From an uncultured Eubacteriales bacterium (GTDB lineage Bacteria; Bacillota; Clostridia; Oscillospirales; Acutalibacteraceae), in assembly GCA_934636435.1 (NCBI GenBank), contig CAKUAQ010000001.1:12732-76731 (forward strand): a stretch of 64,000 nt of DNA. Reading direction: 5' to 3'. Both the position numbers and the translations under genes were made by a program. Of this stretch, positions 19,654-32,437 are shown piece by piece. The notes under the pieces are model-generated. The model worked only from the letters and a program-made list of their open reading frames with translations. It did no database searches and had not been told where the DNA came from. How positions within the stretch are numbered: the first letter of the stretch is position 1; each line of letters opens with the position of its first letter.

Positions 19654-19850
19654 CGGTTCTCGCTCTCCTTTTCCGTCTGTGCTTTAGGCAAAGCCGATTT
19701 TGTCAACCCTCCCATATTACCACATTTCGCCGTCCGTGGCAAGCGGCGGACAACGGATTTTGCCCGTCGGGCGGGGCTTTGGCTTTCCGCAGGAGCCGAA
19801 AAGTTTTCCATGCATAACGGAAACCGGATAATCCTGTGTATTTTCACTTA

Positions 19851-19880
19851 TTTACAAAGATGCGGTTCCTATGGTATAAT
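19851..19880 (+). promoter_or_regulatory. Candidate promoter of the LysR gene
   Basis: TTTACA, 18-nt spacer, TATAAT with upstream TGG (extended -10). Confidence 0.45.
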
Positions 19881-19934
19881 GCGTATGATGCAGCCCGGTT
19901 TACGGTTTGACATTGAAAAGCGGAGGAATCGTGC

Positions 19935-20861
19935 ATGAATCTGTTGCACATGAAATATGCGCTGGTGATCGCCAAGACCAATTCCATCAATAAGGCCGCG
20001 GAAGAGCTGTATGTGGGCGCCCCGGCGCTTTCCCGCGCCATTAAGGAGCTGGAGGCGGATCTGGGTGTCACCCTGTTTGAGCGGAGCGCCAAGGGGATGT
20101 TTCTGACGCCGGATGGGGAGCTGTTCGTAAGCTACGCCAAAAAGGTGCTGAAGCAGATCGACGACATCGAGTCGATTTTCAAGGACGGCTCCAAGGCCAG
20201 AGAGCATTTCTCGATCTCCGCCCCGCGGGCCAGCTATATTGCCGCCGCTTTCGCCGAATTCTCCAAGCGGGTGAATTCCGATTCCGGCGCGGAACTGTTC
20301 TACAAGGAAACAAACGCCTATCGGGTGATCCATACCGTATTGAAAGAGGATTACAAGCTGGGCATCCTCCGCTACGGCGAGCAGTACGAATCCTATTATA
20401 CGGCGATGATGGCCGAAAAGGGACTGGTGGGCGAGCCGGTCGCGGAGTTTTCCTACGTGCTGGTCATGAGCGAAAACAGCCCGATCGCCGCCGAGGAAAC
20501 GGTCACATACGACCGGCTGGACGGCTTCACCGAAATTGCCCACGCCGATCCGTATGTGCCGTCGCTGCCCCTCGCGCAGGTGAAAAAGAATGAGCTGCCG
20601 GAGCACCGGGGCAACCGGATTTTCGTGTATGAGCGGGGCAGTCAGTTTGAGCTGCTCTCCAAGAATCCGCACACCTATATGTGGGTATCGCCTATCCCGG
20701 AGGATCTGCTGAAGCGATATAAGCTGGTGGAGCGGCCCTGTCCGGACAATACGCGCCTGTATAAGGATGTGCTCATCCACCGGGCGGAGTATAAGCTGAC
20801 CGAGCTGGACAATCGGTTTATCGAGGAGCTGGTCAAGGCCAAGCGGAGGGTGTTTCCGTAA
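19935..20861 (+). CDS. LysR-family transcriptional regulator
   Basis: N-terminal HTH LLHMKYALVIAKTNSINKAAEELYVGAPALSRAIKELEADLGVTLFERSAKGMFLTPDG. 308 aa. Divergent from the amidohydrolase gene. Confidence 0.85.
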   Translation: MNLLHMKYALVIAKTNSINKAAEELYVGAPALSRAIKELEADLGVTLFERSAKGMFLTPDGELFVSYAKKVLKQIDDIESIFKDGSKAREHFSISAPRASYIAAAFAEFSKRVNSDSGAELFYKETNAYRVIHTVLKEDYKLGILRYGEQYESYYTAMMAEKGLVGEPVAEFSYVLVMSENSPIAAEETVTYDRLDGFTEIAHADPYVPSLPLAQVKKNELPEHRGNRIFVYERGSQFELLSKNPHTYMWVSPIPEDLLKRYKLVERPCPDNTRLYKDVLIHRAEYKLTELDNRFIEELVKAKRRVFP

Positions 20862-20894
20862 AGACGGCTGCACCGGCCGGGCGGCTTTTATCGT

Positions 20895-20966
20895 GATATC
20901 GGTAATTCGGATATCGGTAAACGGTATATCGAAATAGGAAATACCGAATTGCCGATTCGGCAATTC
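20895..20966. repeat. Phased 15-bp repeat array ending in a 10-bp perfect inverted repeat
   Basis: GATATCGGTAA at 20895 and 20910, degenerate copies TATATCGAAAT at 20925 and AATACCGAATT at 20940. Palindrome GAATTGCCGA-T-TCGGCAATTC at 20946-20966. Confidence 0.6.
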
Positions 20967-20983
20967 CCATACCACCCCGATTC

Positions 20984-20999
20984 TGTTAAAATATTAACA
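20984..20999. promoter_or_regulatory. Rex-type operator (perfect palindrome) overlapping a candidate -10
   Basis: TGTTAAAATATTAACA matches the clostridial Rex box TTGTTAA-N4-TTAACAA core. TAAAAT at 20988-20993 could be the -10. Confidence 0.6.
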
Positions 21000-21011
21000 A
21001 GCAGATGGGAG

Positions 21012-21644
21012 GTGGCGACAACGGAAAGCTGCGGAATATCGAAGGCGACACTCGGCCGGGTCCCCCAGTATCTGGAGTATGTGGATTCCCTGCCACAGGA
21101 CGTTGAACACATTTCCGCAACCAGGATCGCAACGGAGCTGGGTCTCGGCGAGGTGCAGGTGCGCAAGGATCTGGCCGCCCTGTGTAAGAAGGGCAGACCC
21201 CGGATCGGATACGACCGCACGGAGCTGAGGAACAGCCTGCGGGATTTTCTGACCGCGCAGAACGACGCTGCGGTGATCGTCGGCGCCGGAAAGCTCGGCA
21301 AGGCTCTGTTGGAATACAGTGGATTTGACATCTACGGTATCCGGATGGCCGCTGCGTTCGATACCAATGTGACCGATGAGACGGAGCTTCCTTCCGGGAA
21401 GCGCATTCTGCCCATCGGGATGCTGGAGCCCTTTTGCCGGGCGCACCGTGTCCGCATCGGCGTGATCACCACACCGGCTGCGTCGGCCCAGACCACGCTG
21501 AATCGGCTGTGCGCCTGCGGCATCCGGCGGATCTGGTGCTTTGCGCCGTGCCGTCTGTATACGCCGGCAGACACGATCGTACAGTATGAGGATCTGGCCC
21601 TGTCTCTGGCGCATCTGGGGCAATGCGGCGCAAAGCGTGCCTGA
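21012..21644 (+). CDS. rex: Redox-sensing transcriptional repressor Rex
   Basis: ISKATLGRVPQYLEYV (Rex wHTH), ISATRIATELGLGEVQVRKDL, Rossmann motif AVIVGAGKLGKALL. Start is uncertain: GTG 21012 is the first in-frame start downstream of the operator, and the track ORF begins at TTG 20949. Confidence 0.8.
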   Translation: MATTESCGISKATLGRVPQYLEYVDSLPQDVEHISATRIATELGLGEVQVRKDLAALCKKGRPRIGYDRTELRNSLRDFLTAQNDAAVIVGAGKLGKALLEYSGFDIYGIRMAAAFDTNVTDETELPSGKRILPIGMLEPFCRAHRVRIGVITTPAASAQTTLNRLCACGIRRIWCFAPCRLYTPADTIVQYEDLALSLAHLGQCGAKRA

Positions 21645-21709
21645 CCGCATGACCCCGGTTCCCCCCGACCGTAAGACCAAACAAGACCAAAAACCAAAAC
21701 GGAGGTAGT

Positions 21710-24424
21710 ATGTTCATGGAAAGAAAGATCGTTGACAGCGTGGAAGCGCTGGAAGAGACCCTCGTCCGCGTCAAGGAAGCGCAGAAGAAATTCGCCACCT
21801 ACACCCAGGAGCAGGTAGACGCCATATTCAAGGCGGCGGCCATCGCGGCCAACCAGGCGCGGATCCCGCTGGCGAAGATGGCGGTGGAAGAAACCGGCAT
21901 GGGTATCGTTGAGGACAAGGTGATCAAAAACAACTATGCCGCCGAGTACATATACAATGCCTATAAGGACACCCGGACCTGCGGCGTGTTGGAGGAGGAT
22001 AAGGCATACGGCATCAAGAAGATCGCCGAGCCCATCGGTGTGATCGCCGCGGTGATCCCCACCACGAACCCCACCTCCACGGCCATCTTCAAGACTCTCA
22101 TCGCGCTGAAGACCCGTAACGCCATCATCATCTCTCCCCACCCGCGGGCGAAGAAATCCACCATCGCCGCCGCCAAGGTGGTGCTGGATGCGGCCGTGAA
22201 GGCCGGCGCACCGGAGGGCATCATCGAGTGGATCGACGCGCCGAGTCTGGATATGACCAATCTGGTGATGCGGGAAGCCGACATCATCCTCGCCACCGGC
22301 GGTCCCGGCATGGTGAAGGCCGCGTATTCCAGCGGCAAGCCCGCTCTGGGCGTGGGCGCCGGCAATACCCCTGCCATCATCGACGATACGGCCGATATCA
22401 TTCTGGCGGTCAACTCCATCATCCATTCCAAAACCTTTGATAACGGCATGATCTGCGCCTCCGAGCAGTCGGTGATCGTTCATAAGAACGTGTACGACGC
22501 GGTGCGGGAGGAGTTTGCCAACCGCGGGTGCTACTTCCTTAAGCCGGACGAGATCGAGAAGGTGCGCAAGACCATCATCATCAACGGTGCGCTGAACGCC
22601 AAGATCGTCGGCCAGTCCGCCTACCGGATCGCCGCGCTGGCGGGGGTGAAGGTCCCCGAGGGCACCAAGATCCTCATCGGCGAGGTGGAGAGCGTAGAGC
22701 TGTCGGAGGAATTTGCCCACGAAAAGCTCTCGCCGGTGCTGGCTATGTATAAGGCCGAGGATATTCAGGATGCTTTCAGCAAGGCCGAGCACCTGATCGC
22801 CGACGGCGGCTATGGGCACACCTCCTCCATTTATCTCAATGTGGCCACCGAGCAGGATAAGCTCAATGAGTTTGCCGGCCGCATGAAGACCTGCCGCATT
22901 CTGGTCAACACACCCTCCTCCCACGGCGGCATCGGCGACCTGTATAACTTCAAGCTGGCCCCGTCGCTGACGCTGGGCTGCGGCTCCTGGGGCGGCAACT
23001 CGGTGTCCGAGAACGTCGGAGTGAAGCATCTCATCAACATCAAAACCGTGGCCGAAAGAAGGGAAAATATGCTGTGGTTCCGGGCGCCTGAAAAGGTGTA
23101 TATCAAAAAAGGCTGTCTCCCCGTTGCTCTGGATGAGCTGAAGCACGTGATGGGAAAGAAGCGGGCGTTCGTCGTCACCGATTCTTTCCTGTATCATCAC
23201 GGCTATACGAAGCCGATCACGGATAAGCTGGATGAAATGGGCATCGCCCACACGACCTTCTTCGATGTGGCTCCCGACCCGACCCTCGCCTGTGCCAAGG
23301 CCGGTGCAGAGCAGATGCGCGCCTTTGAGCCGGATTGCATCATTGCGCTGGGCGGCGGCTCGGCTATGGACGCGGGCAAGATCATGTGGGTGCTCTATGA
23401 GCATCCGGAAGTGGACTTCATGGATATGGCTATGCGGTTCATTGATATCCGCAAGCGTGTGTATACCTTCCCGAAGATGGGGGAGAAGGCTTACTTTATC
23501 GCCATCCCCACCTCCGCCGGCACCGGCTCCGAGGTGACGCCCTTCGCGGTGATCACCGATGAGCAGTCGGGCGTGAAATATCCGCTGGCGGATTATCAGC
23601 TGCTCCCGAACATGGCCATCATCGACACCGATTTCCATATGTCCGCGCCGAAGGGCCTGACCGCTGCCTCCGGTATCGATGCCGTGTCCCATGCGCTGGA
23701 GGCCATCGCTTCGGTGATGGCTACCGACTATACCGACGGGCTGGCGGTGAAGGCACTGCAGACCATCTTCACCTATCTGCCCCGCGCCTATGACAACGGC
23801 CAGAGCGATGTGGAGGCGAGAGAAAAGATGGCGAATGCCGCCACCATGGCCGGTATGGCTTTTGCCAACGCTTTCCTGGGTGTCTGCCACTCCATGGCCC
23901 ATAAGCTGGGCGCTTTCCACCATATCGCTCACGGCGTCGCCAACGCCCTGATGCTGGAGGAGGTGCTGCGGTTCAACGCAGCGGAAGCCCCCGTGAAGAT
24001 GGGCACCTTCAGCCAGTATGATCATCCTCACACGCTGGCACGGTACGCGATGGTGGCCGACGAGCTGCATCTGGGCGGCACGACCGACGAGGAGAAGCTG
24101 GAGAATCTCATCAAGGCGGTCAACGACCTGAAGGCCCGGGTGGGCATCAAGCCCACCATCCGGGACTATGTGCCGGATGAGCAGGATTTCCTCCATCGGC
24201 TGGATGCCATGGTGGAGCAGGCGTTCGACGATCAGTGCACCGGCGCCAACCCCCGCTATCCGCTGATGAGCGAGATCAAGCAGATGTATCTGAACGCCTA
24301 CTACGGAGGAAAGCACTTTGAGGAGCCGCCGATGCCCACCGCCGATTTCGGTACCGGCGCGGACGACGCCCACGATTTCAAGCAGCCCTATCGCCGCGCC
24401 AAGAGCGGCCTGAAAAAGAACTGA
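21710..24424 (+). CDS. adhE: Bifunctional acetaldehyde-CoA / alcohol dehydrogenase
   Basis: 904 aa. N-terminal ALDH domain (GGPGMVKAAYSSGKPALGVGAGNTP, ICASEQS) plus Fe-ADH domain (ALGGGSAMDAGK, CHSMAHKLGAFHHIAHG). RBS GGAGG. Confidence 0.95.
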   Translation: MFMERKIVDSVEALEETLVRVKEAQKKFATYTQEQVDAIFKAAAIAANQARIPLAKMAVEETGMGIVEDKVIKNNYAAEYIYNAYKDTRTCGVLEEDKAYGIKKIAEPIGVIAAVIPTTNPTSTAIFKTLIALKTRNAIIISPHPRAKKSTIAAAKVVLDAAVKAGAPEGIIEWIDAPSLDMTNLVMREADIILATGGPGMVKAAYSSGKPALGVGAGNTPAIIDDTADIILAVNSIIHSKTFDNGMICASEQSVIVHKNVYDAVREEFANRGCYFLKPDEIEKVRKTIIINGALNAKIVGQSAYRIAALAGVKVPEGTKILIGEVESVELSEEFAHEKLSPVLAMYKAEDIQDAFSKAEHLIADGGYGHTSSIYLNVATEQDKLNEFAGRMKTCRILVNTPSSHGGIGDLYNFKLAPSLTLGCGSWGGNSVSENVGVKHLINIKTVAERRENMLWFRAPEKVYIKKGCLPVALDELKHVMGKKRAFVVTDSFLYHHGYTKPITDKLDEMGIAHTTFFDVAPDPTLACAKAGAEQMRAFEPDCIIALGGGSAMDAGKIMWVLYEHPEVDFMDMAMRFIDIRKRVYTFPKMGEKAYFIAIPTSAGTGSEVTPFAVITDEQSGVKYPLADYQLLPNMAIIDTDFHMSAPKGLTAASGIDAVSHALEAIASVMATDYTDGLAVKALQTIFTYLPRAYDNGQSDVEAREKMANAATMAGMAFANAFLGVCHSMAHKLGAFHHIAHGVANALMLEEVLRFNAAEAPVKMGTFSQYDHPHTLARYAMVADELHLGGTTDEEKLENLIKAVNDLKARVGIKPTIRDYVPDEQDFLHRLDAMVEQAFDDQCTGANPRYPLMSEIKQMYLNAYYGGKHFEEPPMPTADFGTGADDAHDFKQPYRRAKSGLKKN

Positions 24425-24439
24425 GGGAGGATGACGACA

Positions 24440-25189
24440 ATGGAACTCAACCGCATTATTGCCGTAAGGAACAACAAAACCGTGTATCGGGACGGGAATC
24501 AGGTGTATAAGGTCTTTGACGCATCCTATTCCAAGGCCGACGTGCTCAATGAGGCACTGAACCAGGCGCGGGTCGAGGAAACGGGCCTGCATATCCCGAA
24601 AATTCTCGGCGTGACCATGACCGATGGGAAATGGACGATCATCTCGGAGTTTATCAAGGGGAAAACGCTGGCCGAGCTGATGAAAGAGAATCCGGAGAAA
24701 AAGGACGAGTATCTGGAGCTGTTTGTGGACCTGCAGCTGGAGATGCACTCCAAGACCTGCAAGGGGCTGAATAAGCTGAAGGATAAGATGAACCGCAAGA
24801 TCAGCGAAACGGATCTGTCCGCCACCGTGCGGTATGATCTGCACACCCGTCTGGAGGCTATGCCCAAGCACAATAAGGTATGCCACGGGGACTTCAACCC
24901 CTCCAACATCATCATCACCGATGACGGTACGCCCTATATCCTCGACTGGTCCCATGCAACCCAGGGCAATGCGTCCGCCGACGCGGCGCGCACCTATCTG
25001 CTGTTCTGGCTGAACGGCGATATCGACGGCGCCCGGAAGTATCTGGATCTGTTCTGCGAAAAGAGCAACACCGCCCGGCAGTATGTGCAGAAATGGATGC
25101 CCATCGTGGCCGCCTCCCAGACGGTCAAGGGCAACGAGCACGAGCGGGAATTCCTGCACACCTGGATCGACGTGGTGGATTACGAATAA
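24440..25189 (+). CDS. APH/choline-kinase-fold phosphotransferase (small protein-kinase-like fold)
   Basis: Catalytic loop CHGDFNPSNIIITDDG (HxDxxxxN) and metal-binding ILDWSHA, with an upstream VYKVF lysine. ATG 24440 is 9 nt after GGGAGG (the track ORF starts at 24431). Confidence 0.75.
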   Translation: MELNRIIAVRNNKTVYRDGNQVYKVFDASYSKADVLNEALNQARVEETGLHIPKILGVTMTDGKWTIISEFIKGKTLAELMKENPEKKDEYLELFVDLQLEMHSKTCKGLNKLKDKMNRKISETDLSATVRYDLHTRLEAMPKHNKVCHGDFNPSNIIITDDGTPYILDWSHATQGNASADAARTYLLFWLNGDIDGARKYLDLFCEKSNTARQYVQKWMPIVAASQTVKGNEHEREFLHTWIDVVDYE

Positions 25190-25204
25190 GGGAGGATAAA
25201 CAGC

Positions 25205-25447
25205 ATGAAAGTTACCGTATGCATCGGCTCTTCCTGTCATATCAAAGGCTCCAGACAGGTGGTAGAGCAGCTTCAGTATCTAGTTAACGAAGCCGGCGTC
25301 GGCGACAAGGTGGAGCTGGCGGGCACATTCTGTATGGGGAAATGCCAGCAGGGTGTGTGCGTGACCGTGGACGAGCAGTTTTATTCGGTCACCCCCGATA
25401 CCGTGGAGGCGTTCTTCCGGGATCATGTTTTAGGTCAGGTGAAATGA
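25205..25447 (+). CDS. Thioredoxin-like [2Fe-2S] ferredoxin (HfsA-like), copy 1
   Basis: 80 aa with CIGSSC...FCMGKC (Cx4C...Cx3C). RBS GGGAGG. Confidence 0.7.
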   Translation: MKVTVCIGSSCHIKGSRQVVEQLQYLVNEAGVGDKVELAGTFCMGKCQQGVCVTVDEQFYSVTPDTVEAFFRDHVLGQVK

Positions 25448-25448
25448 G

Positions 25449-25703
25449 ATGATCGTTCAGATTTGCGTGGGATCGTCCTGCCATTTGAAGGGATCGGAAC
25501 GCATCATCGGACTGTTTCAGAACGCCGTCAACGCACACGGATTGGAGAACGATGTGACACTGGCCGGGAGCTTTTGCACCGGCCGGTGTAACCGTGTGGG
25601 CGTCACCGTTTCGGTGGATGACGACGTATACACCGGTGTGACGCCGGAGAATTTCGACGAGTTTTTTAAGGATAAGGTGCTGACCGTGCTGGGGGCGGAG
25701 TAG
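25449..25703 (+). CDS. Thioredoxin-like [2Fe-2S] ferredoxin, copy 2 (tandem paralog)
   Basis: 84 aa with CVGSSC...FCTGRC. Starts 1 nt after the previous stop. Confidence 0.7.
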   Translation: MIVQICVGSSCHLKGSERIIGLFQNAVNAHGLENDVTLAGSFCTGRCNRVGVTVSVDDDVYTGVTPENFDEFFKDKVLTVLGAE

Positions 25704-25715
25704 GAGGTTTTATAC

Positions 25716-27386
25716 ATGGAGTGCTTGACTCTGAAAAAATCCAACTGCAAGAATTGCTATAAGTGCATTCGCCATTGTCCGGTGAAGTCTATCCGCTTCT
25801 CCGGGAATCAGGCCTATATTATCGGAAACGAGTGCATTATGTGCGGTCAGTGCTTCGTGGTTTGTCCCCAAAATGCCAAGCAGATTGTGGATGAGACCGA
25901 AAAGGTCCGGGTGCTGCTGCAAAGCGGCGACCCGGTGGTGGTCAGTCTGGCGCCGTCCTTTGTCGCCAACTACGACGGCGTGGGGATCGAATCCATGCGC
26001 ACGGCGCTGAAACAGCTGGGCTTCTACGATGTGGAGGAGACAGCCGTCGGCGCCACCATCGTGAAAAATGCGTATGAGCAGCTGTGCCGCGAGGAGCGGG
26101 ATGTGATCATCACCTCCTGCTGCCATGCGGTCAATCTGCTGATCCAGAAGCATTATCCGAAGCTGCTGCCCTATCTGGCCGATGTGCTGTCCCCCATGCA
26201 GGCGCACTGCAAGGACATCAAGAGCCGTATCCCCAACGCGAAAACCGTCTTTATCGGCCCGTGCGTGGCCAAGAAGGACGAGGCCCAGTATTATGAGGGC
26301 ATTGCGGACGCGGTGCTGACCTTCGACGAGCTGACGGCGTGGCTGAAGGCCGAGAATGTGCCGCTGGAGCAGCGCCTGGACGAGAATGAAAACAGCCGGG
26401 CCCGGCTGTTCCCCACCACCGGCGGCATTCTGAAAACGATGGCGCTGGACGAATCCGCCTATACCTATATGGCTATCGACGGCACGGAGAATTGCATTGC
26501 GGCGCTTAAGGATATCGAGGCCGGCAACGTTCACCACTGCTTTATCGAGATGTCGGCCTGCGTGGGCAGCTGCATCGGCGGCCCGGTCATGGAAAAATTC
26601 CACCGTTCCCCGGTGAAGGACTATGCGGCGGTGACCGGCTATGCGGGACGGGGCGATTTCCCCGTGACGCAGCCCGCACGGAGCGCGCTGGAAAAGGAAT
26701 TTGCCGTGATCGCCCAGCGTGGTGTCGAGCCCGGTGAGACGGAGATTCGGGAGACCCTGCGCCAGATGGGCAAGACGAAGCCCGGCGACGAGCTGAACTG
26801 CGGCTCCTGCGGCTATAACACCTGTCGGGAGAAGGCCATTGCCATCCTGCAGGGCAAGGCCGAGATTTCCATGTGTCTGCCTTTCCTGAAGGAAAAGGCG
26901 GAGAATTTCACCGACACCATCGCCCGCAACACGCCCAACGGTCTGATCGTGCTCAACGAAAAGCTGGAGGTGCAGCAGGTCAACAAGGCGGCTCTGAAGA
27001 TCCTGAATCTGCGCGCGCCGTCGGATATATTGGGCGATCAGGTGGTGCGGATCCTGGATCCCGCCGATTTCGTCACCGTCCTCTCCAAGGGGCGGAATAT
27101 CCACGATAAGCGGGAGTATCTGGCGGAATATGAGAAATACGTGGAAAAGACCGTTGTATACGACCGGGAATACAAGGTGATTCTGTGCATCCTCCGGGAC
27201 GTGACCGAGGAGGAGCTGCAGCGGGAGAAGAAAGAGGACATCAGCCGTCAGACGGTGGAGATCGCGGACAAGGTCGTGGATAAGCAGATGCGCATCGTGC
27301 AGGAGATCGCCTCGCTGCTGGGTGAGACCGCCGCGGAGACCAAGATCGCTCTGACCAAACTAAAGGAGTCCATCGGCGATGAATAA
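25716..27386 (+). CDS. hydS: Sensory [FeFe]-hydrogenase-like protein with C-terminal PAS domain (group C, HydS/HfsB-like)
   Basis: Ferredoxin motifs CKNCYKCIRHCP and CIMCGQCFVVCP. H-cluster-type motifs TSCCH, IGPCVAKKDE, EMSACVGSCIGGP. Extra CGSCGYNTC cluster motif. C-terminal ~120 aa is PAS-like (NTPNGLIVLNEKLEVQQVN...). Confidence 0.8.
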   Translation: MECLTLKKSNCKNCYKCIRHCPVKSIRFSGNQAYIIGNECIMCGQCFVVCPQNAKQIVDETEKVRVLLQSGDPVVVSLAPSFVANYDGVGIESMRTALKQLGFYDVEETAVGATIVKNAYEQLCREERDVIITSCCHAVNLLIQKHYPKLLPYLADVLSPMQAHCKDIKSRIPNAKTVFIGPCVAKKDEAQYYEGIADAVLTFDELTAWLKAENVPLEQRLDENENSRARLFPTTGGILKTMALDESAYTYMAIDGTENCIAALKDIEAGNVHHCFIEMSACVGSCIGGPVMEKFHRSPVKDYAAVTGYAGRGDFPVTQPARSALEKEFAVIAQRGVEPGETEIRETLRQMGKTKPGDELNCGSCGYNTCREKAIAILQGKAEISMCLPFLKEKAENFTDTIARNTPNGLIVLNEKLEVQQVNKAALKILNLRAPSDILGDQVVRILDPADFVTVLSKGRNIHDKREYLAEYEKYVEKTVVYDREYKVILCILRDVTEEELQREKKEDISRQTVEIADKVVDKQMRIVQEIASLLGETAAETKIALTKLKESIGDE

Positions 27387-28551
27387 TCTGTGTGCCGATA
27401 TCGGCTGGAAAAGCATCAACCACGACGGGGAGCAGCTCTGCGGCGACCACATCGACATTGTGGAGCAGGGGGAGAATTCGTCGGTCATCGTGTTGGCCGA
27501 CGGTCTGGGGAGCGGCGTGAAAGCCAGCATCCTCTCCACTCTGACCTCCAAGATCATCTCCACGATGCTGGCGGAGGGGCTGCAGCTGGAGGACTGTGTG
27601 TCCACCATTGCGGCCACCCTCCCGATCTGCTCGGTGCGCGGCGTGGCGTACTCCACCTTTACGATTCTCCACCTGATCGAGAACGAGACGGCGGAGATCA
27701 TTCAGTACGATAACCCCAATGTCATATTCCTCCGGGACGATGAGCTGTACGATTATCCGAAGCAGGAGCTGAATATCGGCGGCAAGACCGTGCTGAAATC
27801 GGTGGTCAAGCTGCAGGAGAACGACATTCTGGTCGCCATGAGCGATGGCTGTCCCCATGCGGGTATCGGCATCGCCTTCAATTTCGGCTGGAAATGGGAG
27901 GATATCGCCGCCTTCATGCAGTCCATCGCGGTGGCAGGATACACAGCCAAGACGCTGGCCACGATGCTGGTGGATCAGTGCAATAAGGAATACGGCTACC
28001 ATCCCGGCGACGACGCGACGGCCTGCGTGGTGAAGGTGCGGCGGCGGGAGCCGATGAATATTCTCTTCGGCCCTCCCCGGAACCGGGACGATTGCGACCG
28101 GATGATGTCGCTGTTTTTTTCCAAGGAGGGCAAACATATCGTGTGCGGCGGAACGACCGCCTCCATCGCTGCCAAGTATTTGGGGAAGCCGGTGAAGGCC
28201 AGCCTGAATTTTGAAAAGAGCGATGTGCCGCCGATCGCGGAGATCGAGGGAGTGGATCTGGTGACGGAGGGAGTCATCACCATCAATAAGGTGATCGAAT
28301 ATGCCCGGGATGCACTGGATAAAAATGAGCTGTACGAGCAGTGGGGCTTCAATCGGGATGGGGCATCCCGCATCTGTCGGCTGCTGTTCGAGGAGGCTAC
28401 CGATATCAATTTCTATGTGGGGCGTGCGGTGAACCCGGCGCACCAGAATCCCGATCTGCCGATCACTTTCAACATCAAGATGAATCTGGTGGAAGAGCTT
28501 TCCACCTGTCTGAAAAAGATGGGCAAGCGCATTAAGGTGAGCTATTTCTGA
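27379..28551 (+). CDS. SpoIIE/PP2C-family serine phosphatase (HfsC-like)
   Basis: GEQLCGDHIDIVEQGENSSVIVLADGLGSGVKASILS...AMSDG, plus a ~190-aa C-terminal domain of unknown function. Overlaps the hydS stop by 8 nt. Confidence 0.75.
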   Translation: MNNLCADIGWKSINHDGEQLCGDHIDIVEQGENSSVIVLADGLGSGVKASILSTLTSKIISTMLAEGLQLEDCVSTIAATLPICSVRGVAYSTFTILHLIENETAEIIQYDNPNVIFLRDDELYDYPKQELNIGGKTVLKSVVKLQENDILVAMSDGCPHAGIGIAFNFGWKWEDIAAFMQSIAVAGYTAKTLATMLVDQCNKEYGYHPGDDATACVVKVRRREPMNILFGPPRNRDDCDRMMSLFFSKEGKHIVCGGTTASIAAKYLGKPVKASLNFEKSDVPPIAEIEGVDLVTEGVITINKVIEYARDALDKNELYEQWGFNRDGASRICRLLFEEATDINFYVGRAVNPAHQNPDLPITFNIKMNLVEELSTCLKKMGKRIKVSYF

Positions 28552-28563
28552 GGAGGCATGACA

Positions 28564-29988
28564 ATGCGTAAGTTTGATACCAAGGTGCAACATTTGAAGT
28601 ATAAGGTGCTCCGTGAAGTGGCCCGCCATGCATGGAACGATACGCTGCTGGAAAATGTGATGGATATTCCCAAACAGATCGTGCCGGGGAAGATCCCCAC
28701 CATGCGCTGCTGCGTGTATAAGGAGCGCGCCATTCTCGGCGAGCGGGTGCGTCTGGCCATGGGCGGCAACAAGGATAACCCCAATGTGATCGAGGTCATC
28801 GAAACGGCCTGCGACGAATGCCCCATGGGCGGCTATGAGGTGACGAACGCCTGCCGGGGATGTCTGGCGCACCGCTGCGAGGACGTGTGTCGGTTCGGAG
28901 CGCTGTCCTTTGATCAGGACCATGTGGCGCATATAGATAAAACGAAGTGCAAGGAATGCGGTGCCTGCGCTCGTGTGTGTCCCTATACGGCCATCATCAG
29001 CCGCAAGCGCCCCTGCGAAAATGCCTGTAAGATCAAGGCTATCCATATGAATGAGGATAAGGCCGCCGCCATTGATAACGATAAGTGCATCTCCTGCGGT
29101 GCCTGCGTATACCAGTGCCCCTTCGGCGCGATCATGGACAAGTCTTATATACTGGACGTGATCGACATTCTGAAAAAAAGCGAGAACAACCGGCGCTACA
29201 AGGTGTATGCCGTGGTGGCGCCGTCCATCTCCAGCCAGTTCAACTACGCGAAGCTGGGACAGGTGATCACGGGGATGAAGCGGCTCGGTTTCCACACGGT
29301 CGTTGAGGCGGCGCTGGGGGCCGACATGGTGGCCGATGCCGAGAGCCGCGAGCTGGTGGAAAAGGGATTCCTCACCAGCTCCTGCTGCCCCGCCTTTGTC
29401 AGCTATATCGAGAAGAATTTCCCCGATCTGGTGCCGTTTATCTCCCACAACCTGTCGCCGATGGCGGCCATCGCCCGGTATCTGAAGGAGCATGAGGACG
29501 GGTGCAAGGTGGTTTTCATCGGTCCGTGCACGGCCAAAAAGGCCGAGGTGCAGAGGGAACAGGTCAAGCAGTATGTGGATGTGGTCATGACCTTCGAGGA
29601 GCTGCAGGCCATGTTCGACTCCCGGGATGTGGATATCACCGCGCTGGAGGAAAGCTGCCTGGACAACGCCTCGTATTTCGGTCGGATTTTTGCCCGCTCC
29701 GGCGGCCTTTCCGACGCGGTGGCCCAGGGGCTCAAGGAGCACGGCGACACGGAATTCCCGCTGAAAGCCTTCCCCTGCGACGGCATTGAGCAGTGCCGGA
29801 TCGCGCTGCTGAAAAAGAGCAAGGGGCTGCTGGATGCCAACTTTGTGGAGGGTATGGCCTGCATCGGCGGCTGTATCGGCGGCGCCGGCTGCCTCACCCA
29901 CGGCGAGAAGAACAAGGCCGAGGTGGATAAATACGGCAAGGAAGCGCTTGAAAAAACCATCTCCGATGCTATCGCCCAGCTGAAATGA
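28564..29988 (+). CDS. [FeFe]-hydrogenase catalytic subunit (group B-like, HfsD-like)
   Basis: CKECGACARVCP and CISCGACVYQCP, with canonical H-cluster motifs TSSCCPAFV, FIGPCTAKKAE, EGMACIGGCIGGAG. ATG 28564 is 8 nt after GAGGAGG. Confidence 0.85.
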   Translation: MRKFDTKVQHLKYKVLREVARHAWNDTLLENVMDIPKQIVPGKIPTMRCCVYKERAILGERVRLAMGGNKDNPNVIEVIETACDECPMGGYEVTNACRGCLAHRCEDVCRFGALSFDQDHVAHIDKTKCKECGACARVCPYTAIISRKRPCENACKIKAIHMNEDKAAAIDNDKCISCGACVYQCPFGAIMDKSYILDVIDILKKSENNRRYKVYAVVAPSISSQFNYAKLGQVITGMKRLGFHTVVEAALGADMVADAESRELVEKGFLTSSCCPAFVSYIEKNFPDLVPFISHNLSPMAAIARYLKEHEDGCKVVFIGPCTAKKAEVQREQVKQYVDVVMTFEELQAMFDSRDVDITALEESCLDNASYFGRIFARSGGLSDAVAQGLKEHGDTEFPLKAFPCDGIEQCRIALLKKSKGLLDANFVEGMACIGGCIGGAGCLTHGEKNKAEVDKYGKEALEKTISDAIAQLK

Positions 29989-30011
29989 TTTGTCCGGAAT
30001 GACCGGCCGCG

Positions 30012-30041
30012 CCCGCAAGCCCGATCTCACGGGCTTGCGGG
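30012..30041 (+). terminator. Rho-independent terminator closing the rex-to-hydrogenase operon
   Basis: CCCGCAAGCCCG (30012-30023) pairs with CGGGCTTGCGGG (30030-30041), followed by a T-containing tail. Confidence 0.75.
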
Positions 30042-30066
30042 CGATTTGCTTTGCCTGAGCCGGATT

Positions 30067-30097
30067 GCCCGAGGGGGAGTTCTTCGGGCTGTTTTTT
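30067..30097 (+). terminator. Second (backup) terminator hairpin
   Basis: GCCCGA...TCGGGC stem followed by TGTTTTTT. Confidence 0.5.
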
Positions 30098-30361
30098 GAG
30101 CCGGTTGACCGGGTGAGCTCACGTTGGACGGTGCCCCCGCAACAGGGGAAACCTTCGCGCCGTGCCGGCTCTTGCGCGGAGATGGGATGCAGGTGCGCTT
30201 TGCGCAGAACGGCAAGGGGAGAATGCTGCTGACGGCGGCGGAAACGGCCGCCGGATCGAAAAACACGGATATCCCCATGAGGCGCACAGGGGAAATGCAG
30301 GCGAAATTCACCGGGAGAATGTGCGATTTATTGATGGCCGGATTTTTTTGCAGTCCGGCTC

Positions 30362-30390
30362 TTGACAAACCTCCAACTATCCGCTATAAT
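30362..30390 (+). promoter_or_regulatory. Consensus sigma-70 promoter of tRNA-Val
   Basis: TTGACA, 17 nt, TATAAT (both hexamers perfect). tRNA starts 26 nt downstream. Confidence 0.8.
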
Positions 30391-30415
30391 GATATACGCT
30401 CTGTGAGAGTGCTAT

Positions 30416-30491
30416 GGACAATTAGCTCAGCTGGTAGAGCATCCGCTTGACGTGCGGAGGGTCAGCGGTTCGAGTCCGTTATTGTCCACCA
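30416..30491 (+). tRNA. tRNA-Val (anticodon GAC), CCA encoded
   Basis: Manual cloverleaf: acceptor GGACAAT/ATTGTCC, D arm GCTC-AGCTGGTA-GAGC, anticodon arm TCCGC-TTGACGT-GCGGA, T arm AGCGG-TTCGAGT-CCGTT. Confidence 0.9.
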
Positions 30492-30549
30492 GTACAGAGT
30501 CATCCGGATCAAAGCTTTATCTTGGGGTTTGTGAGCGGGTGTACGACGA

Positions 30550-30589
30550 GACACCGACAAGGCTAATGCCTTGTCGGTGTCTTTCGTTT
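30550..30589 (+). terminator. Rho-independent terminator after tRNA-Val
   Basis: GACACCGACAAGG / CCTTGTCGGTGTC form a perfect 13-bp stem followed by TTTCGTTT. Confidence 0.8.
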
Positions 30590-30923
30590 ATTCCCCGCCC
30601 TTTTGCGGATTTTGCCCATCAAATCATTCACATAATTACTTCCCCGGCCGACGAAAATTTCGGTCGGCGGCGTTCCGACCCGCAGCGCGACAAGAGCCAC
30701 CCCCGGCACGACAAACAAATCCGCTCCGGCGGCGAAGCACAGGCGCACCGCTGTCCGCCCGGAGAACGGTCGCCGGGGAACGACCTTTCATCCGCTGCTG
30801 TCTGGGTTGGCATCCGGTCGTTCCCCCCGTCCTGTCCGGGCTGGCAGGGCCGCCGGGGGAGCGGGTGTGTCCGGCATTTGCTGCCGCCGGTGAAAAACGC
30901 GCAAAAAAATGAAAATTACCTCT

Positions 30924-30952
30924 TGACAAACTGCATATCTTGGTGTATGATA
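30924..30952 (+). promoter_or_regulatory. Strong promoter of the tRNA-Lys/Glu/5S/Asn unit
   Basis: TTGACA, 17 nt, TATGAT with upstream TGGTG (extended -10). Confidence 0.75.
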
Positions 30953-30984
30953 GTCAAGCGGTTTTCGAGAAACCGCTCATGTTT

Positions 30985-31060
30985 GCACCTTTAGCTCAGT
31001 TGGTAGAGCACCTGACTCTTAATCAGGGTGTCCAGGGTTCGAGTCCCTGAAGGTGCACCA
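30985..31060 (+). tRNA. tRNA-Lys (anticodon CTT), CCA encoded
   Basis: Acceptor GCACCTT/AAGGTGC, anticodon arm CCTGA-CTCTTAA-TCAGG, T arm CCAGG-GTTCGAG-TCCCTG region. Confidence 0.9.
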
Positions 31061-31065
31061 TACAT

Positions 31066-31141
31066 GGCCCGTTGGTCAAGTGGCCTAAGACTCCGGCCTC
31101 TCACGCCGGCAACAGCGGTTCGAATCCGCTACGGGTCACCA
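31066..31141 (+). tRNA. tRNA-Glu (anticodon CTC), CCA encoded
   Basis: GGCCCGTTGGTCAAG... start typical of Firmicute tRNA-Glu. Anticodon arm CCGGC-CTCTCAC-GCCGG. 3' end ACGGGTCACCA. Confidence 0.9.
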
Positions 31142-31143
31142 CG

Positions 31144-31259
<116 letters not shown>

Positions 31260-31290
31260 CACAAGCCCCTGCAATTGTGGGGGCGCATAT

Positions 31291-31366
31291 TGCTCCTTAG
31301 CTCAGTCGGTAGAGCGCATGACTGTTAATCATGATGTCGTCAGTTCGAGCCTGACAGGAGCAGCCA
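31291..31366 (+). tRNA. tRNA-Asn (anticodon GTT), CCA encoded
   Basis: Acceptor TGCTCCT/AGGAGCA, discriminator G, anticodon arm CATGA-CTGTTAA-TCATG. Confidence 0.9.
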
Positions 31367-31371
31367 CACGA

Positions 31372-31400
31372 AAAAGCACTTGCGATCGCAGGTGCTTTTT
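31372..31400 (+). terminator. Terminator of the tRNA/5S unit
   Basis: AAAAGCACTTGCGA / TCGCAGGTGCTTTT stem with one G-T pair, ending in TTTTT. Confidence 0.75.
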
Positions 31401-31653
31401 CGGTCATATGCGCCTTATGGCGAGCGATATGTCCCTGTGACCGGGGATATTCGACTTCGTCGGATGATATTCACTTGGCGAGCGCGAGGGCAAGTATCAC
31501 ACCCCTGTGAGCAAAGCAAAAAACACCGCTTTTGCACAGCCGGTAATACCCACACCCGGGAAGGCGCGGCCTATCTGCGTCTCTGTTTGAAAGCGACCGG
31601 CGAGGGTGAACGGTCAGACACGTCCCGTCCGTCCCGTTTTCGCACCCGGCAGC

Positions 31654-32274
31654 CTATTCCGGAATCTCACCCCGGTCGATGGGGCGGTTCTTGAAATAGT
31701 ATTGCCGGTCCCGGTCGTTCACCGTACGCAGCACCCGGCAGGGATTGCCGACGGCCACCACGTCGGAGGGAATGTCCTTTGTCACCACGCTGCCGGCGCC
31801 GATGACGGCATTGTCCCCGACGGTGACACCCGGCAGCACCACGGCTCCGGCGCCGATCCGGCAGTTGCGTCCGATGTGCACGGGTGCGTTATACGGATAC
31901 CCCTGCTCCCGCAGAGCCAGCAGGATGGGATGTCCGGCGGTGGCCAGCGTGACCCGGGGAGCGATCATGGTGTGGTCGCCTATATAGATATGGGTATCGT
32001 CCACGCAGGTCAGCCCGAAATTCACATAGACATGGCTGCCGAGATGGATGTGGTGGCCGCCCCGGTTGGCGTAAAAGGGAGGCTCGACATAGCAGCCCTC
32101 CCCCAACTCCGCCAGCATGGCTTGCAGCAATGTCTGCCGCTCCTCCAGCTGGAAGGGACGGGTGTGGTTGAAATCATACAGCCGTTCCAGACACCGCTAT
32201 TGCTTCTCCAGAATGTCCGGATCGTCCGGTAAATATAATTCGCCGGTGTGCATACGGTCTGTCATGGGCTTCAT
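31654..32274 (-). pseudogene. maa: Maltose/galactoside O-acetyltransferase-like gene interrupted by an in-frame TAG
   Basis: Minus strand: RBS AAGGGAGAA, then ATG (32274-32272) and MKPMTDRMHTGELYLPDDPDILEKQ. TAG at 32199-32197. The same frame continues RCLERLYDFNHTRPFQLEERQTLLQAMLAELGEG... into hexapeptide repeats (IGRNCRIGAGAVVLPGVTVGDNAVIGAGSVV). Confidence 0.75.
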
Positions 32275-32356
32275 TGAAAATTTCTCCCTTCGGTTTTCTT
32301 CATTATAGCAGTTGGCGTCGGCGAATGCAGGAACGGGAATTTTTGCAAAATACGCC

Positions 32357-32385: not shown

Positions 32386-32437
32386 GACGCGGTAAGCAGA
32401 TGATTCGTCTGCGATTATGCGAAGGAGTGAATGAACA

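What the first reader, a model, noticed from the sequence alone, without database searches (positions are those of the whole stretch)
20984..30050. One operon joins Rex, AdhE, an APH-fold kinase, two [2Fe-2S] ferredoxins, sensory hydrogenase HydS, a PP2C phosphatase and a catalytic [FeFe]-hydrogenase
Seen in sequence:
- Eight co-directional genes with junctions of +65, +15, +15, +1, +12, -8 and +12 nt.
- A perfect Rex-type palindrome lies just upstream, and tandem terminators appear only after the last gene.

Established (from memory):
- Group C PAS-containing HydS proteins are putative H2 sensors and are usually encoded next to a PP2C/SpoIIE phosphatase.
- The four-gene hfsABCD cluster of Thermoanaerobacterium saccharolyticum has this ferredoxin-like/HydS/phosphatase/hydrogenase composition.
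- hfsB deletion there was reported to raise ethanol formation through adhE.

Inference:
- Here the presumed output gene (adhE), the NADH/NAD sensor (rex) and the H2-sensing phospho-module are physically fused into one transcription unit.
- That would make this locus a self-contained controller that partitions reducing equivalents between ethanol and H2.
- I do not know of a description of this arrangement, and the output of the HydS phospho-relay remains unidentified.
Basis: partly seen in the sequence, partly recalled or inferred. Interest (0 to 1): 0.75.

Follow-up and report, generated by a model that had tools for sequence, protein, structure and literature searches.

The report
Known Ruminococcus hydrogen-sensing ethanol/hydrogenase operon
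This is a real eight-gene operon, but it is the counterpart of one already described and shown to be switched off about 100-fold at low hydrogen in Ruminococcus albus 7, so only a conserved neighbouring regulator gene and shared promoter layout may be new.

Summary
Eight co-directional genes (Rex, AdhE, APH/RIO-like kinase, two thioredoxin-like [2Fe-2S] ferredoxins, PAS-containing HydS, SpoIIE/PP2C phosphatase, group B [FeFe]-hydrogenase) lie at 21012-29988. A perfect Rex-type palindrome sits at 20984-20999 and tandem terminators at 30010-30089.

The novelty claim fails. Ruminococcus albus 7 plasmid pRUMAL01 carries the same eight genes in the same order (47-76% aa identity). Zheng et al. 2014 described that unit, and Greening et al. 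2019 showed all eight genes fall 90-130-fold in co-culture with an H2 consumer.

Among the 80 closest HydS loci from species-representative genomes, HydS is followed by the phosphatase in 74/74. adhE lies upstream in 32/52, and the full rex-adhE-kinase set in 19/52.

Three points I found in no accessible paper:
- A LysR-family regulator gene (19935-20861) is conserved just upstream and co-occurs with the kinase and adhE.
- About 34 species share one promoter layout, with upstream TATCGATA/ATACCGAT boxes.
- The Rex box overlaps the extended -10.

The phospho-relay output remains unknown. Interest is low to moderate.

The parts
19935..20861 (+). LysR-family transcriptional regulator gene (308 aa).
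   Evidence: Pfam HTH_1 68.6 bits; NCBIfam LTTR models match the N-terminal half. An orthologue lies directly upstream and co-directional in 38 related loci, and one gene away in 5 more, including R. albus RUMAL_RS17345. It co-occurs with the kinase (38/43 vs 2/15) and adhE (30/31 vs 10/27).
20895..20949 (+). Conserved upstream promoter boxes: GATATCGGTAA (20895-20905 and 20910-20920), GGTATATCGAAA (20923-20934) and AATACCGAAT (20940-20949).
   Evidence: The -35-anchored alignment of 34 species gives the consensus ggtaTATcgata...a.AAtACcgaTaT at a fixed distance from the -35. TATCGATA/TACCGATA words are 20-fold enriched in these promoter zones.
20946..20966 (.). Perfect inverted repeat GAATTGCCGA-T-TCGGCAATTC (TTGC-N7-GCAA core) abutting and overlapping the -35.
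   Evidence: (9-pair stem). TTGC-N7-GCAA is also seen in the closest relatives L004 and L006.
20964..20992 (+). Sigma-70-type promoter: -35 TTCCCA (20964-20969), 14-nt gap to the extended -10 motif, extended -10 TGTTAAAAT (20984-20992).
   Evidence: 9/12 match with TG. The same architecture is found at the 5' end of the cluster in about 34 species.
20984..20999 (.). Rex-type operator TGTTAAAATATTAACA, overlapping the -10 and the predicted transcription start.
   Evidence: Sites with at most 1 mismatch: 12 in 14.4 kb of orthologous promoter zones versus 4 in 1.25 Mb elsewhere.
21012..21644 (+). rex (redox-sensing repressor). The start is uncertain: GTG 21012 lies inside the SD, or ACG 21021 at the orthologous start position.
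   Evidence: PF06971 + PF02629. NF003994 scores 198.7 bits against a cut-off of 130. Closest solved structure is Thermoanaerobacter ethanolicus Rex 3WG9. VRKDL, the GxGxxG-type loop and FD are conserved among 31 orthologues.
21710..24424 (+). adhE, bifunctional acetaldehyde-CoA/alcohol dehydrogenase (904 aa).
   Evidence: Pfam Aldedh + Fe-ADH. NF010378 scores 1382.8 bits against a cut-off of 951. 75% identical to R. albus AdhE.
24431..25189 (+). APH/RIO-like kinase (252 aa; alternative start 24440).
   Evidence: PF01636 51.7 bits and RIO1 34.7 bits. The Lys of YKV, HGD..N and the D of LDW are conserved in 58 orthologues. 73% identical to Rumal_3402.
25205..25447 (+). Thioredoxin-like [2Fe-2S] ferredoxin 1 (80 aa).
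   Evidence: PF01257 34.3 bits; 76% identical to R. albus.
25449..25703 (+). Thioredoxin-like [2Fe-2S] ferredoxin 2 (84 aa).
   Evidence: PF01257 34.8 bits; 70% identical to R. albus.
25716..27386 (+). hydS, PAS-containing group C [FeFe]-hydrogenase-like sensor (556 aa).
   Evidence: Fe_hyd_lg_C + FeS (PF04060) + PAS. It scores below every catalytic-hydrogenase cut-off in NCBIfam. In CpI numbering: C299 kept, M353->G, M497->S, E279->K. 69% identical to Rumal_3405, which Greening et al. class as group C3.
27379..28551 (+). SpoIIE/PP2C phosphatase (390 aa) with an uncharacterised C-terminal domain. It overlaps hydS by 8 nt.
   Evidence: PF07228. Foldseek top hits are SpoIIE, RsbU and RssB phosphatase domains. 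Catalytic Asp residues are invariant. The gene follows hydS in 74/74 loci, with the same overlap in 73.
28558..29988 (+). hydA2, monomeric group B [FeFe]-hydrogenase (476 aa; alternative start 28564).
   Evidence: TIGR04105 FeFe_hydrog_B1 scores 574.9 bits against a cut-off of 450. 75% identical to Rumal_3407. H-cluster motifs TSSCCP, GPCTAKK and EGMACIGGCIGG are present.
30010..30089 (+). Tandem intrinsic terminators (30010-30043 and 30067-30089).
   Evidence: sequence.

Best explanation
The locus is the orthologue, in an uncultured Clostridia (Oscillospiraceae-like) gut or rumen bacterium, of the R. albus 7 Rumal_3400-3407 'high-H2' operon.

Layout (read from the sequence). One promoter (-35 at 20964, extended -10 at 20984) drives rex-adhE-kinase-fd-fd-hydS-pp2c-hydA2. 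Transcription stops at two terminators after hydA2.

Function (shown in R. albus, inferred here). At low H2 the unit is almost silent, and the cell makes acetate using its bifurcating hydrogenase. At high H2 it is induced about 100-fold. It then supplies AdhE to reoxidise NADH as ethanol and a ferredoxin-dependent group B hydrogenase to dispose of reduced ferredoxin.

Control (inferred).
1. Rex sits on the operator that overlaps the -10 and start site, and leaves when NADH/NAD+ rises. Because rex is the first gene, this also gives negative autoregulation.
2. HydS binds H2 at a tuned H-cluster. Through its PAS domain and conserved C-terminal helix it modulates the translationally coupled PP2C phosphatase, which opposes the APH/RIO-like kinase on a still unknown phosphoprotein.
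3. An activator acts from the conserved boxes just upstream of the -35. The conserved LysR-family neighbour is the leading candidate.
For: Identity of the system:
- Same eight genes, same order and the same 8-nt hydS/pp2c overlap as R. albus pRUMAL01, with 47-76% aa identity.
- All eight R. albus genes fall 90-130-fold in H2-consuming co-culture, with ethanol replaced by acetate.
- Co-transcription and H2-sensing feedback are stated in the literature.

Single transcription unit here:
- Junctions are at most 65 nt, with no strong internal terminator and strong tandem terminators at the end.
- No Rfam element lies in the leader.

Protein memberships:
- Rex, AdhE and the group B hydrogenase pass curated NCBIfam cut-offs.
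- HydS has sensor-type substitutions at M353 and M497.
- Catalytic residues of the kinase and PP2C are conserved.

Operator and promoter:
- The Rex box is perfect, unique in 64 kb and about 260-fold enriched at orthologous promoters.
- Promoter architecture is conserved in about 34 species.
- LysR synteny and co-occurrence with the kinase and adhE.
Against: - No expression data exist for this organism. Everything functional is transferred from R. albus.
- The R. albus promoter itself lacks the second Rex half-site (TGTTATAATTGAATTA). Only 7/27 promoters of clusters carrying rex have a box within 2 mismatches. Rex control of this promoter is therefore not a general feature.
- rex here lacks a normal start codon.
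- The kinase could be a small-molecule kinase. Its best family is APH, and Pkinase scores below cut-off.
- No phospho-target is known, and the mechanism is still called unknown in 2026.
- In Thermoanaerobacterium the homologous Hfs proteins are often treated as one hydrogenase.
- The strict TATCGATA boxes track the presence of rex, not LysR.
Confidence: 0.8

Rival explanations
1. Rex alone sets transcription, with NADH/NAD+ serving as the proxy for H2. HydS, kinase and PP2C act post-translationally, for example on the activity of HydA2, AdhE or ferredoxin flow, and have no transcriptional output.
For: - A perfect Rex operator lies over the -10.
- Rex boxes are present on 14/20 rex-less LysR+ promoters.
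- In T. saccharolyticum hfsB deletion strains, NADH-ADH activity rose without a matching rise in ALDH activity, which the authors read as possible post-transcriptional regulation.
- No DNA-binding domain is present in HydS, kinase or PP2C.
Against: - R. albus shows 100-fold regulation yet has no recognisable Rex box at this promoter.
- In T. saccharolyticum, rex expression rose with ethanol production, opposite to simple Rex repression.
Confidence: 0.3
2. HydS is not a sensor. It is a subunit of a multi-protein hydrogenase (Fd-Fd-HydS-PP2C-HydA2, as in 'Hfs hydrogenase'), and the cluster is simply an enzyme operon placed next to adhE.
For: - The fd-hydS-pp2c-hydA2 core is the invariant part: 74/74 loci have pp2c after hydS and 61/65 have hydA2 after pp2c.
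- HydS keeps all H-cluster cysteines and the C299 equivalent.
- Thermoanaerobacterium papers discuss HfsABC as a possible functional hydrogenase.
Against: - The PAS domain, the PP2C partner and the sensor-type M353G/M497S substitutions.
- HydS scores far below the catalytic family cut-offs.
- hfsB deletion changes adhE expression.
Confidence: 0.2
3. The LysR-family neighbour is the main activator and responds to a metabolite such as acetyl-CoA, acetaldehyde or a redox metabolite, independently of HydS. The kinase makes or removes that effector.
For: - LysR co-occurs with the kinase and adhE rather than with the hydS core.
- The kinase's best Pfam match is the small-molecule APH family.
- Conserved boxes lie at activator positions upstream of the -35.
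Against: - The substrate-binding domain of LysR is only weakly recognised (18.5 bits against a cut-off of 28).
- Strict boxes track rex rather than LysR.
- The R. albus gene immediately upstream of Rumal_3400, which I take to be Rumal_3399 (the LysR gene; tag mapping not verified), was not found in the held supplementary text, which was truncated when stored. An activator need not change in level, so this is neutral.
- Co-occurrence was not phylogenetically corrected.
Confidence: 0.25
4. The genes are clustered but transcribed as several units from internal promoters.
For: - Weak promoter-like sites lie at 25725 and 26266, and there is a 65-nt rex-adhE gap.
- Related species have clusters beginning at adhE, the kinase or fd.
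Against: - Internal sites match only 9/12 and are at chance frequency.
- There are no internal terminators.
- The R. albus genes change by nearly the same factor, with similar read levels.
- Overlapping or 1-15 nt junctions.
Confidence: 0.1

Closest known systems
Ruminococcus albus 7 Rumal_3400-3407 (RUMAL_RS17350-17385) on pRUMAL01: rex-aad(adhE)-kinase-fd-fd-hydS-phosphatase-hydA2 (Zheng et al. 2014; Greening et al. 2019)
   Same: - Identical gene content and order.
- 8-nt hydS/pp2c overlap.
- 47-76% aa identity.
- LysR-family gene immediately upstream.
- Same promoter skeleton with TATATCGATA / ATATCGATAT boxes, -35 and TGTTATAAT.
   Different: - The window is 57% G+C against 42%.
- It carries a perfect Rex box where R. 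albus has only one half-site.
- The rex-adhE gap is 65 nt against 16 nt.
- The rex start codon is non-canonical.
- Replicon type here is unknown.
- No experimental data exist for this organism.
Thermoanaerobacterium saccharolyticum / thermosaccharolyticum hfsABCD
   Same: A core of PAS-containing HydS-type protein (HfsB), PP2C-type phosphatase (HfsC) and ferredoxin-linked hydrogenase (HfsD), with a genetic link to ethanol yield and adhE expression.
   Different: - As those papers describe the four-gene hfs operon, it holds no rex, adhE or kinase; adhE and rex are discussed there as separate loci (Tsac_0416 for adhE). I did not inspect the Thermoanaerobacterium locus itself.
- HfsA is described as not aligning well with known proteins, rather than as two small [2Fe-2S] ferredoxins.
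Thermotoga maritima HydS (biochemically characterised sensory [FeFe]-hydrogenase)
   Same: H-domain plus PAS architecture. Small residue at CpI M353 (Gly) and Ser at CpI M497.
   Different: The window HydS keeps the Cys equivalent to CpI C299, where TmHydS has Ala131. It belongs to the C3-type R. albus lineage.
Rex regulons of Clostridia / Thermoanaerobacter (Rex repressing adhE and hydrogenase genes; consensus TTGTTAANNNNTTAACAA, from memory of Ravcheev et al. 2012)
   Same: The protein passes the Rex equivalog model. Its closest solved structure is T. ethanolicus Rex. The operator matches the 16-bp core perfectly and overlaps the -10.
   Different: rex is here the first gene of its own target operon. 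The wing region after the recognition helix differs from canonical Rex (AALCKKGRPRIGY against NNFGGFGQQGYGY). Many sister promoters lack the box.
Ralstonia eutropha HoxBC-HoxJ-HoxA H2-sensing system
   Same: The logic is the same: a low-activity hydrogenase acts as H2 sensor, coupled to a phosphorylation switch that controls hydrogenase genes (cited).
   Different: The proteins are unrelated: [NiFe] regulatory hydrogenase, histidine kinase and response regulator. It controls H2 uptake rather than fermentation.

Membership tests
R. albus-type rex-adhE-kinase-fd-fd-hydS-pp2c-hydA2 operon | Same eight genes in the same order and orientation | tested here: met
   Also found in at least 19 of 52 related species loci with enough upstream sequence.
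R. albus-type rex-adhE-kinase-fd-fd-hydS-pp2c-hydA2 operon | Co-transcription and strong repression at low H2 | not testable with these tools
   Shown only for R. albus. Here there is only sequence: short junctions, one promoter and terminal terminators.
Rex (redox-sensing repressor) | Winged-helix N-domain plus Rossmann NAD(H) domain, scoring above the curated family cut-off | tested here: met
   PF06971 + PF02629. NF003994 198.7 bits > 130. VRKDL, G-x-G-x-x-G and FD are conserved. Aligns to 3WG9 over residues 9-199.
Rex (redox-sensing repressor) | NADH-sensitive binding to a TTGTTAA-N4-TTAACAA-type operator at the target promoter | tested here: inconclusive
   A perfect 16-bp core is present and unique and enriched at orthologous promoters. 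It is absent in R. albus and in most rex-first promoters. Binding is not testable.
AdhE (bifunctional acetaldehyde-CoA/alcohol dehydrogenase) | N-terminal acylating ALDH fused to C-terminal Fe-ADH, above the equivalog cut-off | tested here: met
   NF010378 1382.8 bits > 951.
Group C (sensory) [FeFe]-hydrogenase HydS | H-cluster domain with all ligating cysteines, a C-terminal four-Cys FeS motif and a PAS domain | tested here: met
   Fe_hyd_lg_C 172 bits, PF04060 42 bits, PAS_9/PAS/PAS_8. Cys equivalents of CpI C300, C355, C499 and C503 are present.
Group C (sensory) [FeFe]-hydrogenase HydS | Non-catalytic second-sphere residues (CpI C299, M353, M497 replaced, as in TmHydS) | tested here: inconclusive
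   M353->G and M497->S are met. C299 is retained (TSCCH), unlike TmHydS A131. The position is variable among sensory enzymes.
Group C (sensory) [FeFe]-hydrogenase HydS | Adjacent PP2C/SpoIIE phosphatase gene | tested here: met
   8-nt overlap here. 74/74 related loci.
Group C (sensory) [FeFe]-hydrogenase HydS | H2-dependent signalling | not testable with these tools
   Still a hypothesis in the literature.
PP2C / SpoIIE-type Ser/Thr phosphatase | PPM fold with metal-binding aspartates | tested here: met
   PF07228. D23, D41, D156 and D211/D212 are invariant in 32 sequences. Foldseek top hits are SpoIIE, RsbU and RssB, probability 1.00.
Group B monomeric [FeFe]-hydrogenase (HydA2/HfsD type) | Score above the TIGR04105 cut-off, with H-cluster motifs L1-L3 | tested here: met
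   574.9 bits > 450. Motifs are visible in the translation. The R. albus orthologue is classed as group B in Greening's supplementary sequence file, although the main text calls it group A1.
Protein Ser/Thr kinase (as named by Zheng et al.) | Kinase catalytic core (VAIK-type Lys, HxD..N loop, metal-binding Asp) | tested here: met
   The Lys of YKV, HGDFNPSN and the D of LDW are conserved in 58 orthologues.
Protein Ser/Thr kinase (as named by Zheng et al.) | A protein, not a small molecule, as substrate | tested here: inconclusive
   Best Pfam families are APH (51.7 bits) and RIO1 (34.7 bits). Pkinase scores 23.5 bits, below its 31.7 cut-off. PDB sequence hits are weak and mixed.
LysR-type transcriptional regulator (neighbour gene) | N-terminal HTH_1 plus C-terminal LysR substrate-binding domain, about 300 aa | tested here: inconclusive
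   HTH_1 68.6 bits is met. LysR_substrate scores only 18.5 bits against a cut-off of 28. Length is 308 aa. NCBIfam LTTR models align up to about residue 200.
LysR-type transcriptional regulator (neighbour gene) | Binds dyad boxes upstream of or overlapping the -35 of the adjacent target promoter | not testable with these tools
   Candidate dyads are present (TTATC-N6-GATAA in relatives; TTGC-N7-GCAA at 20950-20964 here). Strict boxes track rex rather than LysR.

The most novel reading that the evidence does not exclude
The long-missing output of the HydS phospho-relay may be encoded next door. In this reading, the conserved LysR-family regulator (19935-20861) is the factor whose activity is set by the APH/RIO-like kinase and the HydS-coupled PP2C phosphatase, and it activates the operon from the conserved boxes upstream of the -35. 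A variant is that the operon-borne Rex paralogue recognises the TATCGATA boxes instead. Either way, Rex on the -10 would add the NADH input, making a two-input (H2 AND NADH) promoter shared by dozens of gut and rumen Oscillospirales.
Probability: 0.25. Interest if true: 0.6.

Novelty: already known. Interest (0 to 1): 0.25.

Why it matters
The operon type matters for rumen and gut hydrogen economy. It decides whether abundant fibre-degrading Clostridia make acetate plus H2, which feeds methanogens, or ethanol. That significance is already recognised from R. albus.

This analysis adds three things:
- The arrangement is widespread. There are at least 552 HydS relatives among species-representative genomes and more than 8000 phosphatase clusters in metagenomes. 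Variants are modular: a core fd-hydS-pp2c-hydA2, with or without kinase, adhE and rex.
- There are concrete cis elements and a candidate regulator (LysR) to test by EMSA, DAP-seq or genetics in R. albus.
- It cautions that Rex control of this promoter is lineage-specific.

Tried and rejected
- Zheng et al. 2014 could not be opened by DOI or PMC id. Its content is taken from my memory of the abstract and from citing papers. I therefore cannot say whether it mentions the LysR gene.
- Literature searches linking LysR with HydS or adhE, and for the TATCGATA motif, returned nothing relevant.
- The C-terminal domain of the phosphatase (about aa 225-390) has no Pfam hit and no PDB sequence hit. The AF2 model has pLDDT 36-76 there because the available alignment was shallow (85-100% identity). 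Foldseek matched only the N-terminal PP2C domain. The fold remains unknown.
- No Rfam family (riboswitch or leader) lies in 17000-33000 apart from the tRNAs and 5S rRNA.
- No second Rex box occurs in the window, even with 2 mismatches.
- A hairpin after the LysR gene (20866-20886 plus UUUUAU) is no more stable than shuffles (z = -0.18). Separation of the LysR and operon transcripts is therefore not shown here, although clear terminators follow LysR in several relatives.
- The long antisense ORFs 21332-25240 and 27241-30030 are mechanical products of high G+C (GC3 0.56-0.58 against about 0.8 for real genes) and were rejected as genes.
- Whether these genomes carry a second, housekeeping rex could not be tested.


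Full report
WHAT IS THERE

The interval holds eight co-directional + strand genes. Pfam and NCBIfam identify them as follows:
- Rex: PF06971 + PF02629; NF003994 198.7 bits against a cut-off of 130.
- AdhE: NF010378 1382.8 bits against 951.
- A 252-aa APH/RIO-like kinase.
- Two thioredoxin-like [2Fe-2S] ferredoxins of 80 and 84 aa.
- A 556-aa HydS with an H-cluster domain, a four-Cys FeS motif and a PAS domain.
- A 390-aa SpoIIE/PP2C phosphatase.
- A 476-aa group B monomeric [FeFe]-hydrogenase: TIGR04105 574.9 bits against 450.

Junctions are +65, +6 (or +15), +15, +1, +12, -8 and +6 (or +12) nt, depending on which of two neighbouring ATGs is used.

TGTTAAAATATTAACA at 20984-20999 is the only match in the window even with two mismatches allowed. 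No shuffle gives a perfect match.

Two strong terminators follow hydA2 at 30010-30043 and 30067-30089. Inside the operon there are only two weak, chance-level hits. Downstream lies a consensus promoter and a tRNA/5S rRNA cluster.

IT IS A KNOWN OPERON

A protein search of plasmid records with HydS hit Ruminococcus albus 7 pRUMAL01 at 69% identity. The annotated region there reads Rex, AdhE, phosphotransferase, two (2Fe-2S) ferredoxin-domain proteins, the HydS-type protein, SpoIIE phosphatase and the hydrogenase. The order is the same and hydS/pp2c overlap by the same 8 nt. Identities to the window are 47, 75, 73, 76, 70, 69, 76 and 75%.

From my memory of the abstract, Zheng, Kahnt, Kwon, Mackie and Thauer (J Bacteriol 2014) showed three things. 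hydS and hydA2 belong to a larger transcription unit. That unit also carries the acetaldehyde/ethanol dehydrogenase, a Ser/Thr kinase, a phosphatase and a redox-sensing repressor. They proposed HydS as an H2 sensor. I could not open the paper, but citing papers summarise it consistently.

Greening et al. 2019 describe 'a putative eight-gene cluster' that is down 111-fold when R. albus grows with the H2 consumer Wolinella. They propose direct H2 sensing and a feedback loop. Their Table S7 lists Rumal_3400 to Rumal_3407 at -130, -121, -114, -109, -107, -122, -101 and -90-fold.

As of 2025-2026 the mechanism and the relay output are still called unknown.

HOW COMMON IT IS

A scan of species-representative genomes with a HydS alignment found at least 552 relatives. 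I kept the 80 closest (72-99% identity). One of them, an uncultured Clostridia MAG, is 99% identical to the window. Mapping the eight proteins onto these loci gave the following:

| Feature | Count |
|---|---|
| pp2c directly after hydS | 74/74 (same overlap in 73) |
| hydA2-type gene after pp2c | 61/65 |
| adhE within 5.2 kb upstream | 32/52 |
| full rex-adhE-kinase set | 19/52 |

Other forms begin at adhE, the kinase, rex-kinase, rex-fd or fd. The system is thus modular around an invariant fd-hydS-pp2c-hydA2 core of the hfsABCD type. The phosphatase alone has more than 8000 clusters at 90% identity in metagenomes.

Immediately upstream, on the same strand, is a LysR-family regulator gene at 19935-20861 (HTH_1 68.6 bits). 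Its orthologue is directly adjacent in 38 loci and one gene away in 5 more. R. albus is among them.

Co-occurrence of the LysR gene, none of it phylogenetically corrected:

| Partner gene | LysR present when partner present | LysR present when partner absent | Fisher p |
|---|---|---|---|
| kinase | 38/43 | 2/15 | 2e-7 |
| adhE | 30/31 | 10/27 | 1e-6 |
| rex | 20/26 | 20/32 | 0.27 |

Anchoring the 5' regions on the -35 shows one promoter architecture in about 34 species. The consensus is ggtaTATcgata...a.AAtACcgaTaT, then the -35 (TTCcCA), 14 nt, and TGtTAaAAT followed by atTAac.

In the window the elements are:
- Boxes at 20895-20949.
- A perfect dyad GAATTGCCGA-T-TCGGCAATTC at 20946-20966, abutting the -35.
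- The -35 at 20964-20969.
- The extended -10 at 20984-20992.

The Rex palindrome therefore overlaps the -10 and the likely start site. This is a classic repressor position, and it also explains why its 'spacer' is conserved.

HOW GENERAL REX CONTROL IS

Boxes with at most one mismatch occur 12 times in 14.4 kb of orthologous promoter zones, against 4 times in 1.25 Mb elsewhere. The site is not chance. Its distribution is uneven, though:
- 14/20 rex-less, LysR-linked promoters have a box within two mismatches.
- Only 7/27 promoters of clusters that carry rex do.
- R. albus has only one half-site.

The CG-containing TATCGATA/ACCGAT words show the opposite pattern. They average about 1.9-2.0 per promoter when rex is in the cluster, with or without LysR. 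The average is 0.45 and 0.08 when rex is absent, against a background of 0.22.

I cannot say who binds these boxes. It could be LysR, an operon-borne Rex with altered specificity, or a third factor. The window Rex keeps the VRKDL recognition helix but differs from T. ethanolicus Rex in the wing.

PROTEIN DETAILS BEARING ON MECHANISM

- HydS aligned to CpI keeps all cluster cysteines and the C299 equivalent. It has Gly at M353, Ser at M497 and Lys at E279. Gly and Ser are the states found in characterised T. maritima HydS, whereas that protein has Ala at C299.
- The PP2C metal-binding aspartates are invariant, and its N-domain model matches SpoIIE, RsbU and RssB.
- The kinase catalytic Lys, HGD..N and Asp are conserved in 58 orthologues. 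Family assignment (APH above RIO1 above Pkinase) does not settle whether the substrate is a protein.
- At the position where orthologues have ATG, GTG or TTG 5-7 nt after the SD, the window rex has ACG (21021). The only upstream in-frame start, GTG 21012, is inside the SD. This may keep Rex synthesis low relative to AdhE.

VERDICT

The locus is a genuine, well-formed member of a known system. The best-supported mechanism is the published one: induction at high H2 and high NADH of AdhE plus a ferredoxin-dependent hydrogenase, with Rex and a HydS/PP2C/kinase relay as inputs.

The shown steps are gene identity, orthology, promoter/operator/terminator anatomy, and, in R. albus only, about 100-fold co-regulation. 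The inferred steps are Rex binding here, H2 sensing by HydS, the kinase/phosphatase target, and the role of LysR.

Novelty is 'already known'. The residual interest lies in the conserved LysR neighbour and promoter boxes, which give a concrete handle on the unidentified relay output.

Noticed in passing
window 19935-20861 (+): A LysR-family regulator gene is conserved immediately upstream of the operon in 38 (+5 nearby) related loci, including R. albus 7. It co-occurs with the kinase and adhE but not with rex.
   Followed up: yes
window 20895-20969; loci L001-L081 promoter zones: Upstream boxes (TATATCGATA ... AATACCGATAT) lie at a fixed distance from the -35 in about 34 species. The strict CG-containing form tracks clusters that carry rex, not LysR. 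The binder is unknown.
   Followed up: partly
window 20946-20966: A perfect inverted repeat GAATTGCCGA-T-TCGGCAATTC (TTGC-N7-GCAA geometry, LysR-box-like) overlaps the -35 hexamer. It is shared in weaker form with the two closest relatives.
   Followed up: partly
window 21007-21023: rex has ACG where orthologues have ATG/GTG/TTG after the Shine-Dalgarno sequence. The only canonical in-frame start, GTG 21012, lies within the SD. This suggests a non-canonical or weak start.
   Followed up: partly
window 28051-28551 (phosphatase residues ~225-390): The C-terminal 165-residue domain of the HydS-linked phosphatase is highly conserved. It has no Pfam or PDB match and only a low-confidence AF2 model.
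   Followed up: partly
window 27215-27386 (HydS residues ~500-556): The HydS C-terminal helix ([29 protein letters not shown]) is almost invariant even against the 55%-identical Monoglobus protein. It ends inside the overlapping phosphatase start, so it may be a docking element.
   Followed up: no
window 30362-31363: A consensus 12/12 promoter (TTGACA-17-TATAAT, 30362-30390) is followed by four tRNA genes and a 5S rRNA (31143-31259), directly after the operon terminators.
   Followed up: partly
window 21332-25240 (-) and 27241-30030 (-): Very long antisense ORFs (1302 and 929 aa) lie opposite adhE and pp2c-hydA2. Their GC3 is 0.56-0.58 against about 0.8 for real genes, so they are artefacts of high G+C.
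   Followed up: yes
window 18373-19653 (-); 11429-14380 (+); 124-4152 (+): Flanking genes are unrelated to redox control: a NagA-like amidohydrolase divergent from LysR, a GH106-like rhamnosidase, and DUF5696 plus two ABC permeases.
   Followed up: partly
Greening et al. 2019 main text versus supplementary file 2: R. albus HydA2 (Rumal_3407) is called group A1 in the text but aligns to a group B reference in the supplement. The window orthologue passes the group B1 model (TIGR04105).
   Followed up: partly
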